A stretch of 36,905 bases of DNA, from IMG/VR virus record IMGVR_UViG_2645727604_000018; one strand, 5' to 3'. This document shows positions 27,001-30,000 of the stretch, in pieces. The DNA is from a virus (taxonomy: Duplodnaviria; Heunggongvirae; Uroviricota; Caudoviricetes). Numbering within the stretch: position 1 is the first letter of the stretch; every line of letters starts with the position of its first letter. The position numbers are program-made.

Positions 27001-30000
27001 CGTTGCTAATTCAGGCAGTCACTGCCGGGGCGCTCAAATATGAGTTACACATACCGACGGTTGTCATTCCCGGTTCTGATCATAATCCGCCTTCTAACCA
27101 AGGGGAGGATTCATGAAAATCAAGCATGAACACATCCGCATGGCGATGAATGCCTGGGCGCGTCCTGATGGCGAAAAAGTTCCAGCAGCTGGAATAACCC
27201 AGGCTTATTTTGAGTTGGGTATGACGTTTCCTGAACTGTATGACGACAGCCATCCGGAAGCCTTGGCTCGCAATACCCAGAAAATTTTCCGCTGGGTAGA
27301 GAAAGACACCCCTGATGCAGTTGAAAAAATTCAGGCGTTGTTACCAGCGATCGAAAAGGCAATGCCACCTTTGCTGGTGGCCAGAATGCGCAGCCACAGT
27401 TCAGCTTATTTTCGGGAGCTGGTGGAGACGCGGGAGCGATTGGTGAGAGACGCTGATGATTTTGTCGCAGTGGCAATCGCCGGTTTCAATCAGATGAACC
27501 GTGGTGGCCCGGCAGGAAATGCTGTGGCAGTACATTGACTGACAATAGCCATATCGAATCGCTTCCGGCAACTCGTGAGTAAAAAGATTCGGTATCAGAA
27601 GAGGTGAGTATGGCTAACGCCTGGCTCAGATTATGGCATGACATGCCAAATGACCCTAAGTGGCGAACAATTGCCAGGGTGTCAGGGCAGCCAATTGCAA
27701 CAGTGATGGCAGTGTATATCCACCTCCTGGTGAGCGCGTCACGAAATGTCACGCGAGGTCACATTGATGTCACGACAGAAGATTTGGCAAGTGCGCTCGA
27801 CGTAACAGAAGAGGTAATTGATTCAATTTTGCAGACGATGCAGGGGCGGGTACTTGATGGTGATTTAATCACTGGATGGGAAAAACGCCAAGTGCTTAAA
27901 GAGGACAACGGCAATATATCGCAAACCGCAAAATCTCCTGCAGAGCGCAAGAGGGCGCAGCGAGAGAGGGAAAGAAAGCGGGAACAAAATGGCGATTGTC
28001 ACGGCGCGTCACGAAATGTCACGCACATGTCACGACGAGTCACGACAGATAAAGATACAGATAAAGATACAGATCAAGAAGATCAAAATACTATGGTCCA
28101 TGGCGTAAAAAACGCCACGAACCAGGCAGGGGATGTTCAGGCCGTCAATCCTGGTCAGCCAGCAGGCACGACACCGGAAGCCGATTCAGCGTATGCGCTG
28201 AAAGCCGATTCGGGCGCTGTGCAGCAGGTGATGACCGCAAGGCCGGAGCAATCACACCAACTGCAGCAGCCTGAAGCCGATTCCGCCATTCAGCGGGAAG
28301 CCGATCGGGTAGTTCCGGAAAACACCGGGCAGTCTGTGGGACGAGTGGATTATCCGGATGTGTTCGAACAGGTCTGGCGGGAGTACCCGTTGCGTGCTGG
28401 GGCAAACCCGAAGAAATCCGCTTTCAGTGCCTGGAAGGCCAGATTACGCGAGGGGGTGCCACCAGAGGCCATGCTGGATGGCGTGAGGCGTTACGCAAGA
28501 TATCTGGCGGCTACCGGGAAAGCGGGAACGGAATTTGTTCAGCGAGCGACGACGTTTTTTGGACCGGACCGGAATTTTGAAAACCCCTGGTTGCTCCCGG
28601 TAAGCGGTACGAATAACCAGCGTTGCGTGAATCACATTTCTGAACCAGATACCGAAATTCCACCGGGCTTCAGGGGGTAAGTGTTGATTTCTGGTCATGA
28701 GGTAATTTTCAGGAGGACTTGTGGCAAAAGTTTTTACACAAGAAGAGCGAGAAAAAATTAAAGGGCAGGTTGTTGAACTCGTACGCCAGAGTGGGCGTGA
28801 GACGTTACGGCAACTGGAAGTCAAGACAGGTGCGACAAGATATCTGATGAGCGTTCTCGCAAGAGAGCTGGTTGCCAGCGGCGATGTATACAACTCTGGT
28901 TACGGGTTATTCCCGTCTGAACAGGCGCGTAAGGACTGGCAAAATGCCCGTAAAAAGCTCTCAAGGGCAAAGCTGAAGAAACCATCTGCGGTTGATCCGG
29001 ACCTTATCTGGTCATTACCTGATGGAGAAATACGTCGTTACGACAGGCGTCATAATATAATTTGTACTGAGTGTCGTAAAAGCGAAGTTATGCAGCGGAT
29101 ATTGTCGTTTTATCAGGGGGATGTTCGGTATTTTTTGAAGTGACGAGATTAAAGTGCATTAGTTCAGATGTAAATTGACATTTTGTGGCACAGGGTAGAG
29201 CTAGCGTGGTTGTCCGCTTTGTGCCAAAAGCAGACATTGATAACATTGAGATATGTTAATTTATAGGGAGCAGCTCAAGGCCCACTGGAACTTCCAGTTT
29301 TTGCCCCTGAAACCGTTCCCAATGAGCACTTCCATCTGAAGACTGCGCAGTCTTAGTTTTCGTTGCCTTTAGTTTATCCCTTTATGATACCGATAAAAAC
29401 TTTTTTTTAATTTCTGCTGCCGTTTTCTCCATGCTGGGATATACAGTGCTTTCGGATATATTAAGCTGCGCCAGCTCTTCCAGAATTTTATTTTTGTTCG
29501 CTATCTCCACTCTGTTAAGAGGAAACTCAGCATCTGTTTCCGGTAAAATGGGATCAAGTCCGAACAGAAGAAAAGCTCCTGCCTGAGATTGTATGCGTTC
29601 ATTATTTATTTTAGCCTTAAGGAAAACAACTTTCCTTAAGTCATCAGGAATTATTCTGTTTCTAAAATATGATTTTTCATTCTGTATAAGGTCTGCAAGT
29701 TTATCAGTGAGTTCAGATAACTCCATATTACCTTTTCTGGAATCAGAGGAGGACAATTTTTCCAACTCTTCGTAAGATAAAAGTGATAAGTTTGCTATAC
29801 AGCTCACTGTATCTGAGTCGAAATATTTAATTTTCTTTCTATTTGTTGAAAACGAAATCACCTGTCCGTTTTCATTGGGGTTCGAACAGCAAGCAAAATA
29901 TAATGCTATCAGTGGGTTAGATGTAATGTCTAAGAGTCTTGTAGGCAAGCCATAATGCTGCATGCGGACAAGTTTATCAATCGTAAATTTATCCTCCTTA

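What the first reader, a model, noticed from the sequence alone, without database searches (positions are those of the whole stretch)
27738..28044. Two 10-bp-periodic GTCACG iteron clusters inside the replication gene, sharing a 20-mer
Four and five GTCACG copies at about 10-bp spacing (one helical turn) in two blocks about 260 bp apart, both containing gcgcgtcacgaaatgtcacgc. The second block is followed by a tandem gataaagatacag repeat. Iterons inside the initiator gene are the lambda ori arrangement; a duplicated iteron block is unusual and could represent two origins or an origin plus a regulatory site.
Basis: seen in the sequence. Interest (0 to 1): 0.5.

Follow-up and report, generated by a model that had tools for sequence, protein, structure and literature searches.

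The report
Two-part origin inside phage initiator gene
The two clusters of GTCACG repeats are real and are most likely binding sites for the prophage replication initiator whose own gene contains them: the downstream cluster plus an A-rich stretch looks like a lambda-type origin, and the upstream cluster is a conserved second array, not described in the literature I could search, whose role is still unknown.

Summary
Observation confirmed. Inside the replication-initiator gene of a lambdoid prophage (27610-28680) lie two direct arrays of (T)GTCACG at 10-11 bp spacing. Block 1 has 4 copies (27738-27774) and block 2 has 5 (27998-28044). Block 2 is followed by a low-GC, purine-rich tandem tract and an inverted repeat, as in lambda ori.

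The arrays are DNA-level elements, not a protein repeat. Successive copies fall in different reading frames. In 23 relatives, synonymous sites inside the block 1 cores are almost invariant.

About 47 of 65 homologous loci keep two arrays at the same gene positions. The motif differs between lineages (GTCACG, CGAACGC, GCAACG, GTGACG, GTAACGC) but is the same in both blocks of each genome. Only block 2 has the A-rich flank (46 of 47 loci against 1 of 47), so "two origins" is unlikely.

Lambda O and SPP1 gene 38, checked here, have a single array.

Best reading: a bipartite in-gene origin. Block 2 plus the A-rich tract is the core. Block 1 is an accessory initiator-binding array whose role (cooperative or regulatory) is unresolved.

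I rate it a new variant of a known kind. It occurs in 2078 of 5426 complete E. coli genomes. I found no experimental description.

The parts
27610..28680 (+). Replication initiator ('phage replisome organizer') gene, 356 aa. It has an N-terminal DNA-binding domain (aa 1-~95), a basic helix (110-127), a disordered linker (129-245), a helical C-terminal domain and a DnaT-like C-terminal tail.
   Evidence: phrog_3729 E 8e-257; N-terminal and C-terminal halves hit separate PHROGs. NCBI name. AF2 model. A Shine-Dalgarno sequence GAGGTG lies 5 nt before the ATG at 27610. 97-98% identical genes occur in isolated phages Tritos, Evi and vB_EcoS-689R5.
27738..27774 (+). Block 1: four direct iterons with core (T)GTCAC(G/A), starting at 27738, 27748, 27758 and 27769. 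They are encoded in codons 43-55, the end of helix 29-45 plus the loop 46-55 of the N-terminal domain.
   Evidence: Synonymous sites are nearly invariant in the cores. An array sits at the same gene position in about 47 homologous loci, with a lineage-specific motif. The encoded loop varies in length with iteron number.
27998..28044 (+). Block 2: five direct iterons GTCACG at 27998, 28008, 28018, 28029 and 28039. They are encoded in codons 130-145, at the start of the disordered interdomain linker. Candidate origin-core initiator binding sites.
   Evidence: Present in 55 of 65 homologous loci as a 10-11 bp periodic array, against 0 of 395 control windows.
28045..28092 (+). A-rich, purine-rich tandem tract (ACAGATAAAGAT x2, then ACAGATCAAGAAGATCAAAATACT). 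It is the lowest-GC stretch of the gene and contains two GATC sites. Candidate DNA unwinding element.
   Evidence: GC 0.25 at 28050-28089. A (GATAAA)n / (GATACA)n tract follows block 2 in nearly all loci whatever the iteron motif. AT is 0.68 and purine 0.75, against gene AT 0.45, in 46 of 47 loci. Codon choice there is skewed: GAT 95%, AAA 83% and ACA 72%, against 41%, 45% and 14% in the rest of the gene.
28094..28124 (.). Inverted repeat TGGTCCATGGCGT-aaaaa-ACGCCACGAACCA immediately after the A-rich tract. Possible counterpart of the palindrome to the right of lambda ori. On the minus strand it reads as a terminator-like hairpin.
   Evidence: (I14). The same IR is present in Stx phage 75/02 with a change on both arms (GGCGA...TCGCC). 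Hairpins are modestly enriched after block 2 across 47 loci compared with 2193 control windows, P 5e-8. Its role is unknown.

Best explanation
The region is the replication origin of this lambdoid prophage, embedded in the gene of its own initiator. Both GTCACG arrays are binding sites for the initiator's N-terminal domain, probably one protomer per helical turn on one face of the DNA. Block 2 together with the adjacent A-rich, purine-rich tandem tract is the origin core, where initiator oligomers destabilise the duplex so that the host helicase can be loaded. Block 1, about 230 bp upstream inside the coding sequence of a variable loop of the DNA-binding domain, is a conserved accessory array bound by the same protein. 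It most likely cooperates with block 2 by looping or wrapping the intervening DNA to build or stabilise the initiation complex.

Shown here: the arrays exist. They are under nucleotide-level selection. Their layout is conserved. The motif changes in step in both blocks. Only block 2 has an unwinding-element-like flank.

Inferred: that the initiator is the binder, that replication starts here, and that block 1 acts positively.
For: 1. Periodic arrays are specific to this gene. 55 of 65 homologous gene windows have at least 3 same-5-mer pairs at 10-11 bp spacing, against 0 of 395 flanking control windows.

2. About 47 loci from Gamma-, Beta- and Alphaproteobacteria and phages keep two arrays, at nt ~125-190 and ~340-490 of the gene.

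3. At least five motif classes exist (GTCACG, CGAACGC, GCAACG, GTGACG, GTAACGC). In each genome both blocks carry the same motif. Several classes occur within one host genus, Pseudomonas, which argues against a host factor as the binder.

4. Third-codon positions in the block 1 cores carry 1.84 bits against 0.64 bits elsewhere in 23 GTCAC-class loci, P 3e-5.

5. Among GTCAC-class loci, none of the five other neighbourhood products tested (cI, cro, YdaT/cII-like, rep C-terminal domain, DUF977) recurs in more than a few loci. Only the initiator N-terminal domain is present in all.

6. The A/T- and purine-rich tract follows block 2 in 46 of 47 loci and block 1 in 1 of 47. It shows strong AT-favouring codon choice.

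7. Both arrays fall in protein segments that tolerate change: a loop with lower pLDDT and the disordered linker. Extra iterons appear as loop insertions.

8. Lambda O and SPP1 gene 38 show the same array-plus-A-rich layout at the interdomain linker. In SPP1 the origin-binding protein gp38 binds the direct repeats of oriL, and the AT-rich region acts as the unwinding element (PMC6316719).

9. Nearly identical genes are carried by isolated phages.
Against: There are no binding or replication data for this family in the searchable literature. Because the arrays lie inside the gene, their co-inheritance with the N-terminal domain is automatic and is not independent evidence that this domain is the binder. 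Helical phasing between the two blocks is inconclusive: R 0.43 at a 10.0 bp period on 28 unique gaps, and those gaps are phylogenetically clustered. A few lineages keep only block 2 (L087, L134, L135), so block 1 is not universally required. That fits a regulatory role as well as a cooperative one. The winged-helix nature of the N-terminal domain is not confirmed: there is no Pfam hit, and Foldseek found no match with E below 0.6.
Confidence: 0.6

Rival explanations
1. Block 2 plus the A-rich tract is the whole origin. Block 1 is a negative or regulatory initiator-binding site. It could titrate initiator, pair with block 2 to 'handcuff' it, act as an intragenic roadblock that feeds back on transcription of the initiator gene and of transcription through the origin, or act as a fork barrier. 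SPP1 gp38 bound at oriR has been proposed to act as a fork barrier.
For: Block 1 lacks any unwinding-element-like flank. It is dispensable in some lineages (L087, L134, L135), which then carry 5-8 copies in block 2. The initiator gene is transcribed from a distant early promoter behind cro and the cII-like gene, so ordinary operator autoregulation is not available. SPP1 gp38 bound at a second site is proposed to stall forks (PMC6316719). From my own knowledge, not checked here: iteron plasmids such as P1 (incA), F and RK2 use extra arrays for negative control.
Against: A lytic-phase phage gains little from copy-number limitation. The position, copy number (3-5) and orientation of block 1 are conserved much like those of block 2. 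No promoter-like site above chance lies near block 1. Nothing here distinguishes positive from negative action.
Confidence: 0.25
2. The two blocks are two independent origins, or a primary and a back-up origin, each able to fire on its own.
For: Both arrays have similar core motifs and copy numbers. SPP1 has two origins bound by one initiator (PMC6316719).
Against: In 46 of 47 loci only block 2 is followed by an AT-rich, purine-rich tract. The 40 nt after block 1 have the gene's average composition and encode a conserved helix (EDLASALDV). The SPP1 origins each have their own AT-rich element, which block 1 lacks.
Confidence: 0.04
3. The repeats are a by-product of a repeated peptide or of slippage and have no DNA-level function.
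For: Both blocks encode the similar peptide ASRNVT. The linker is low-complexity.
Against: The 10-11 bp period puts successive copies in different reading frames. Synonymous positions in the cores are nearly invariant while neighbouring conserved residues vary freely at third positions. The motif switches concordantly in both blocks between lineages and drags the encoded peptide with it.
Confidence: 0.02
4. The arrays are bound by something other than the encoded initiator (a host protein or another phage protein) or serve another DNA function such as partition, packaging or recombination.
For: From my own knowledge, not tested here: arrays of 10-12 bp direct repeats bound one protein per turn are also typical of plasmid centromeres such as ParR/parC and TubR/tubC.
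Against: None of the five other neighbourhood products tested is shared across GTCAC-class loci. Different motif classes coexist in one host genus. The location at the initiator's interdomain linker with an adjacent A-rich tract matches lambda and SPP1 origins. No DnaA-box or IHF consensus site lies nearby.
Confidence: 0.06

Closest known systems
Phage lambda ori within gene O (O/P system)
   Same: Initiator binding repeats lie inside the initiator's own gene at the junction between the N-terminal DNA-binding part and the C-terminal part. They are followed on the same side by an A-rich, purine-rich tract and then an inverted repeat (lambda annotation and sequence; window). The genomic position is the same: after cI-cro-cII and before a Ren-like gene.
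   Different: Lambda has one cluster of four ~18-19 bp iterons about 20-24 bp apart and no upstream array. Here the cores are 6-7 bp at 10-11 bp spacing, in two arrays. The protein has no Pfam match at all, so none to lambda O's family. No P-like or DnaC-like gene follows in this window.
Bacillus phage SPP1 replisome organizer gp38 with oriL (in gene 38) and oriR
   Same: The origin lies inside the organizer gene. An ~11 bp periodic repeat array in the linker is followed by an AT-rich tandem repeat. The initiator binds the direct repeats and the AT-rich region is the unwinding element. One initiator binds two separate repeat regions (PMC6316719). There are weak PHROG matches of the N-terminal domain to 'replisome organizer' families, E 6e-6 and 2e-4.
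   Different: The second SPP1 site (oriR) lies about 13 kb away in the circularised genome, in an intergenic region, with its own AT-rich element (PMC6316719). Gene 38 itself has a single array. Here the second array is 230 bp away inside the DNA-binding-domain coding sequence and has no AT-rich element.
Salmonella phage L gene 18 (and P22 gene 18) in-gene repeats
   Same: Six imprecise 11-bp repeats inside the initiator gene are proposed as the origin on sequence grounds (PMC8022706). This is short-period iterons of the same style.
   Different: A single repeat region is described there. The protein was not among the tblastn relatives of this N-terminal domain.
Phage P4 ori plus crr, and iteron plasmids with extra arrays (P1 incC/incA, F, RK2); from my own knowledge, not checked in papers here
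   Same: Two separate arrays of the same short repeat are bound by one initiator. The second array either is required in cis (P4 crr) or controls initiation (P1 incA).
   Different: In P4 the separation is kilobases. In the plasmids the arrays flank the rep gene. In both, the arrays are intergenic. Here both arrays are intragenic, 230 bp apart, in the same orientation and on the same side of the A-rich tract.
PICI/SaPI origins
   Same: Two sets of iterons are associated with one AT-rich melting region (PMC6092414, Fig. 2 legend).
   Different: There the two sets flank the AT-rich region and are intergenic. Here both sets lie upstream of it and inside the initiator gene.

Membership tests
Lambda-type origin (iterons inside the initiator gene) | Array of direct repeats inside the initiator's coding sequence | tested here: met
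   two arrays inside ORF 27610-28680 (phrog_3729, replication initiation protein).
Lambda-type origin (iterons inside the initiator gene) | A+T-rich, strand-asymmetric region directly next to the iterons | tested here: met
   GC 0.25 and AT skew about 0.5 at 28050-28089. Conserved in 46 of 47 loci. The same layout is seen in the lambda sequence.
Lambda-type origin (iterons inside the initiator gene) | Initiator homologous to lambda O (Pfam Phage_rep_O) with a P-type helicase loader gene next to it | tested here: not met
   No Pfam family at E <= 0.01. The downstream gene is DUF977/Ren-like, not P or DnaC. So this works like lambda ori but is not a member of the O/P family.
Lambda-type origin (iterons inside the initiator gene) | Initiator binds the repeats, and the fragment replicates when initiator is supplied | not testable with these tools
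   Needs EMSA or footprinting and an ori-cloning assay.
Phage replisome organizer (SPP1 gp38-like; Pfam PF09681 N-terminal domain) | Sequence membership of the N-terminal domain | tested here: inconclusive
   No Pfam hit. Weak PHROG hits to 'replisome organizer' families phrog_4880 (6e-6) and phrog_5968 (2e-4), and to DnaD-like loader families. NCBI calls the protein 'phage replisome organizer'. Foldseek found no significant match.
Phage replisome organizer (SPP1 gp38-like; Pfam PF09681 N-terminal domain) | Origin (repeats plus AT-rich element) located within the organizer gene | tested here: met
   (SPP1 gene 38 compared directly).
Two-site origins or control arrays (P4 ori/crr; P1 incC/incA) | Two separate arrays carrying the same initiator-binding motif | tested here: met
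   The same core is in both blocks. The motif co-varies between blocks across at least 5 classes.
Two-site origins or control arrays (P4 ori/crr; P1 incC/incA) | Second array required in cis (P4) or negatively controlling initiation (P1) | not testable with these tools
   Needs mutational analysis. Natural variants lacking block 1 exist, which argues against an absolute requirement.
DnaT (primosomal protein I) | Full-length homology to DnaT | tested here: not met
   Only the last ~24 residues match (NCBIfam NF002770, 18 bits against a cut-off of 201; PDB DnaT chains, E 0.02-0.07). The 'primosomal protein I' annotations in some phage records rest on this tail.

The most novel reading that the evidence does not exclude
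The origin is an obligate two-site device. Initiator oligomers on block 1 and block 2 bridge or wrap the ~230 bp between them, and this is needed to open the purine-rich tract. Because block 1 sits inside the coding sequence of the DNA-binding domain, a loop of the initiator has its amino-acid sequence and length dictated by the protein's own binding sites. Two arrays, one in the N-terminal-domain coding region and one just before a purine-rich tandem tract, also occur in a second N-terminal domain family with no detected sequence similarity (Stx phage 75/02 type, 11-bp GAAGGGGCTTC repeats). That recurrence would make this a general, undescribed design principle of in-gene phage origins.
Probability: 0.3. 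Interest if true: 0.6.

Novelty: new variant of a known kind. Interest (0 to 1): 0.5.

Why it matters
This initiator-plus-origin module is in 2078 of 5426 complete E. coli genomes and in prophages of many Proteobacteria. I found no paper that maps its origin. The comparative data give four things:
- A precise, testable origin map: core array, unwinding tract and accessory array.
- A natural specificity series. All motif classes share ACGC and differ in the preceding three bases, which could be used to study or re-engineer initiator-iteron recognition.
- A clear example of a coding sequence shaped by overlapping DNA-binding-site constraints, including iteron-encoded loop insertions.
- A likely explanation for why N-terminal and C-terminal halves of these initiators recombine at the linker. 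As in lambda, the origin travels with the N-terminal specificity domain.

If block 1 proves necessary, bipartite in-gene origins would be a new architectural class beside lambda and SPP1.

Tried and rejected
Tests that led nowhere or were inconclusive:
- Helical phasing between the arrays (Rayleigh-type test on block 1 to block 2 gaps). There is a weak signal at 10.0-10.25 bp, but the gaps are phylogenetically clustered, so I call it inconclusive.
- Structure. The AF2 model has mean pLDDT 52; only the N-terminal domain is confident. Foldseek against PDB gave no match with E below 0.6. Several weak hits were winged-helix regulators, which is not evidence.
- PDB sequence search. Only the DnaT C-terminal tail matched.
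- Rfam on 26000-30000. Nothing meaningful.
- Promoter and terminator scan. Counts are at chance level. The only notable site is the inverted repeat read on the minus strand.
- DnaA-box and IHF consensus near the arrays. None.
- Extra degenerate iterons between the blocks. None.
- Strict hairpin search (stem of 9 or more). It did not show a conserved palindrome across the family. A more lenient score shows only modest enrichment.
- The viral-contig scan returned only near-identical E. coli copies. It was useful only to show that the 4+5 layout is stable, in 61 of 69 copies where the gene start was found.
- Plasmid search. It found mostly large replicons, or chromosomes filed as plasmids, plus two 51-kb Pseudomonas records. 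I did not inspect these; they may be circular phage genomes. No small natural mini-replicon turned up.
- Literature searches for this family's origin, for GTCACG iterons, for two iteron sets in phage, and for oriJ/Rac. No description of this architecture. The library lacks many subscription papers, for example Weigel and Seitz 2006, so prior mention cannot be excluded.

Rejected readings: protein-level repeat, two independent origins, and a host-factor site (see the rival explanations).
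Full report
**1. The observation**

Reading 27400-28500 and searching GTCACG confirms two + strand clusters.
- Block 1 sits at 27738, 27748 and 27769, plus a GTCACA variant at 27758. The spacing is 10/10/11.
- Block 2 sits at 27998, 28008, 28018, 28029 and 28039. The spacing is 10/10/11/10.

The shared exact string is the 21-mer GCGCGTCACGAAATGTCACGC, at 27734 and 28004. Block 2 is followed by ACAGATAAAGAT x2 plus a variant.

The clustering is far beyond chance. The window has 20 sites against 9.0 +/- 2.9 in shuffles. Eight + strand copies fall in 307 nt where 0.05 are expected, P about 1e-15.

**2. Context**

The arrays lie in ORF 27610-28680 (356 aa). It matches phrog_3729 'replication initiation protein' end to end. 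Its N-terminal half (aa 1-~160) and C-terminal half (aa ~200-356) hit separate PHROGs. It has no Pfam hit. NCBI names it 'phage replisome organizer'.

The neighbourhood is a lambdoid early-right operon:
- S24-peptidase cI-like repressor (26156-26794, minus strand)
- P22-Cro-like gene (26838-27116)
- YdaT/cII-like gene (27113-27538)
- the initiator
- DUF977/Ren-like gene (28721-29143)
- an FRG-domain gene on the opposite strand
- further on, DUF968, RusA and antiterminator Q
- to the left, a RecE-like exonuclease and an integrase

No helicase or helicase-loader gene follows the initiator. Genes 97-98% identical are carried by isolated phages Tritos, Evi and vB_EcoS-689R5. The N-terminal part with both arrays is present in 2078 of 5426 complete E. 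coli genomes. In 61 of the 69 IMG/VR copies where the gene start was found, the 4+5 layout is unchanged.

**3. A DNA element, not a protein repeat**

The period is 10-11 bp, so successive copies are read in frames 2/0/1/0 and 1/2/0/2/0.

I aligned 23 GTCAC-class homologues (51-100% amino-acid identity in the N-terminal domain). Third-codon positions inside the four block 1 cores carry 1.84 bits of information, against 0.64 bits at 58 other third positions (Mann-Whitney P 3e-5). The neighbouring, equally conserved residues (EDLASA) vary freely at synonymous sites.

The AlphaFold model is confident only for the N-terminal domain. It places block 1 (codons 43-55) at the end of helix 29-45 and in the loop 46-55. 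It places block 2 (codons 130-145) at the start of a long disordered linker (129-245). Both are therefore in protein segments that tolerate change.

In relatives with more block 1 copies, the loop is correspondingly longer and its residues are simply the translated iterons. Examples are L145 with 10 copies and L113.

**4. Comparative anatomy**

A tblastn search of phage records and one scan of species-representative genomes gave 65 usable loci. They come from Gamma-, Beta- and Alphaproteobacteria, a few other MAGs, and phages of Aeromonas, Pseudomonas and Ralstonia.

A de novo search for any 5-mer recurring at 10-11 bp found at least 3 such pairs in 55 of 65 gene windows. It found this in none of 395 flanking control windows, where the maximum was 2.

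About 47 loci have two arrays, at nt ~125-190 and ~340-490 of the gene. The repeated motif differs between lineages: GTCACG, CGAACGC, GCAACG, GTGACG, GTAACGC and TGACGC. All share ACGC preceded by a variable triplet. In each genome the same motif is used in both blocks.

Different classes occur in the same host genus (Pseudomonas: L082, L095, L111, L113, L118, L144, L145). Among GTCAC-class loci, cI, cro, the cII-like gene, the initiator's C-terminal domain and DUF977 each recur in only a few loci. This argues that the binder is the N-terminal domain itself and not a host factor or a neighbouring gene product. The caveat is that arrays inside the gene are inherited with it automatically.

Exceptions:
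- L087, L134 and L135 have block 2 only, with 5-8 copies.
- L108 and L110 have two blocks of mixed-orientation GTAACG/GTCACG.
- L114, L116 and L126 have almost no iterons but keep the GATAAA tandem.
- L127 and L137 lack arrays, and their sequence diverges after the N-terminal domain.

**5. Only block 2 looks like an origin core**

In the window, the lowest-GC stretch of the gene (0.25) lies at 28050-28089, directly after block 2, with a strong A-over-T skew.

Across 47 two-block loci, the 40 nt after block 2 average 68% A+T and 75% purine, against 45% A+T for the gene. This holds in 46 of 47 loci. The 40 nt after block 1 average 47% A+T, and only 1 of 47 stands out.

The tract is a recognisable (GATAAA)n / (GATACA)n or polypurine tandem in nearly every lineage, whatever the iteron motif. 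Its codon choice is skewed towards A/T: GAT is 95% of Asp codons (41% elsewhere), AAA is 83% of Lys (45%), and ACA is 72% of Thr (14%). This is what a DNA unwinding element embedded in a coding linker would look like.

In the window it is followed by a 13-bp-arm inverted repeat at 28094-28124.

**6. Comparison with known origins, tested directly**

Lambda gene O has one cluster of four iterons at nt 349-433, then an A-rich purine tract and a palindrome, and nothing upstream.

SPP1 gene 38 has one ~11-bp periodic array at nt ~358-410 followed by an AT-rich 9-bp tandem. In SPP1 the origin-binding protein gp38 binds the direct repeats of oriL (within gene 38) and of a second, distant oriR. The AT-rich region acts as the unwinding element (PMC6316719).

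Phage L gene 18 carries six 11-bp repeats that are proposed as its origin (PMC8022706).

So block 2, the A-rich tract and the inverted repeat fit a known design. The new element is block 1, a second array inside the coding region of the DNA-binding domain.

I found no paper describing this family's origin or this bipartite layout. The library is incomplete.

**7. A second family with two arrays**

The Stx-phage 75/02-type initiator shares the C-terminal half with the window protein. Its N-terminal domain shows no detected sequence similarity to the window's.

In five lineages (Shigella/E. coli, Klebsiella, Acinetobacter, Ralstonia NK-7, E. coli phage Fraca) it also carries two arrays of GAAGGGGCTTC at an 11-bp period. 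One lies at nt ~170-210 and one at nt ~440-470. The second is direct in some lineages and inverted in others. A purine-rich (GAACAG)n tandem follows.

The sample is small and the motif does not vary, so covariation cannot be tested there. Still, the recurrence suggests the second array is a functional requirement and not an accident of one lineage.

**8. Mechanism**

Best supported, confidence about 0.6 for the whole statement and higher for the origin assignment alone:
- The initiator's N-terminal domain binds both arrays, one protomer per turn on one face of the helix.
- The block 2 complex destabilises the adjacent purine-rich tract.
- The C-terminal domain recruits the host helicase machinery.
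- Block 1 is an accessory array that cooperates with block 2, possibly by looping or wrapping the ~230 bp between them.

Main rival, about 0.25: block 1 acts negatively, through titration, pairing with block 2, an intragenic transcription roadblock or a fork barrier.

The other rivals are 'two origins' (0.04), 'protein repeat' (0.02) and 'other binder or function' (0.06). They are disfavoured and 57/56 respectively.

The phasing test that might have favoured looping is inconclusive.

**9. Verdict**

This is a new variant of a known kind. It is a lambda/SPP1-style in-gene iteron origin with a conserved second array embedded in the DNA-binding-domain coding sequence. It is widespread and, as far as I could search, experimentally uncharacterised. 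Interest 0.5.

Noticed in passing
window 28609-28680 (last 24 codons of the initiator gene and its stop): The initiator's C-terminal tail (GTNNQRCVNHISEPDTEIPPGFRG) closely matches the extreme C-terminus of E. coli DnaT (..SEPDNHIPPGFRG) and nothing else of DnaT. No helicase or loader gene follows in this window. Relatives in Aeromonas, Ralstonia and Pseudomonas phages have genes annotated 'replicative helicase', dnaB and 'replication protein P' downstream. The tail may be how this initiator, which has no loader gene beside it, taps the host primosome.
   Followed up: partly
L148 1894-2982; L151-L154 (Stx phage 75/02-type initiators): A second N-terminal domain family with no detected sequence similarity also has two in-gene arrays (GAAGGGGCTTC, 11-bp period). 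One is at nt ~170-210. The other is at nt ~440-470, in direct or inverted orientation. A (GAACAG)n purine tandem follows.
   Followed up: partly
window 28094-28124; loci L082, L096, L101, L103, L104, L117, L119, L121, L131, L132, L140: The inverted repeat after the A-rich tract reads as an intrinsic-terminator-like hairpin on the minus strand. It recurs in Stx phage 75/02 with a change on both arms. Across 47 loci, hairpins are modestly enriched 20-140 nt after block 2 (P 5e-8 against 2193 control windows). Many have 4-nt loops (tgac, tggc, tgcc) and unrelated stems. This may be a further structural element of the origin, or it may reflect a coded peptide motif.
   Followed up: partly
loci L081-L147 (iteron cores): All motif classes share a constant ACGC preceded by a variable triplet (GTC, CGA, GCA, GTG, GTA). 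The block 1-encoded loop keeps a T-(E)-R-G motif in all classes. This is a natural specificity series for one DNA-binding fold.
   Followed up: partly
L145 and L147 (Pseudomonas and Phytopseudomonas), L113, L124: Block 1 is expanded, to 8-10 copies in L145 and L147. The extra iterons appear as insertions of translated-iteron peptide in the loop between helices 3 and 4 of the N-terminal domain.
   Followed up: partly
window 28072-28075 and 28081-28084: Two GATC (Dam) sites lie inside the A-rich tract. GATCTAAA also appears in the corresponding tract of several enterobacterial relatives. Whether methylation or SeqA matters is unknown.
   Followed up: no
L127, L137 (Serratia and Pantoea loci): The N-terminal domain is followed by a different C-terminal sequence that looks like a GIY-YIG-type motif (..YVYYV..GIS.NPWAR..). 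I judged this by eye and did not test it. These genes lack the periodic arrays and carry TACGTAGTA-type repeats instead.
   Followed up: no
window 29382-30716 (-), 16004-17119 (+), 17902-19236 (-), 20559-21584 (-): An FRG-domain gene sits on the opposite strand between the replication genes and the nin-like region. It may be a moron or a defence gene; I did not test this. A GmrSD-type restriction gene and two integrase genes lie to the left, suggesting two adjacent integrated elements.
   Followed up: no
plasmid records CP137943.1 and CP124671.1 (P. aeruginosa, ~50.9 kb): Two records filed as non-mobilizable plasmids carry the GTCAC-class initiator at 69.5% identity. I did not inspect the records; they may be circular phage genomes.
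   Followed up: no
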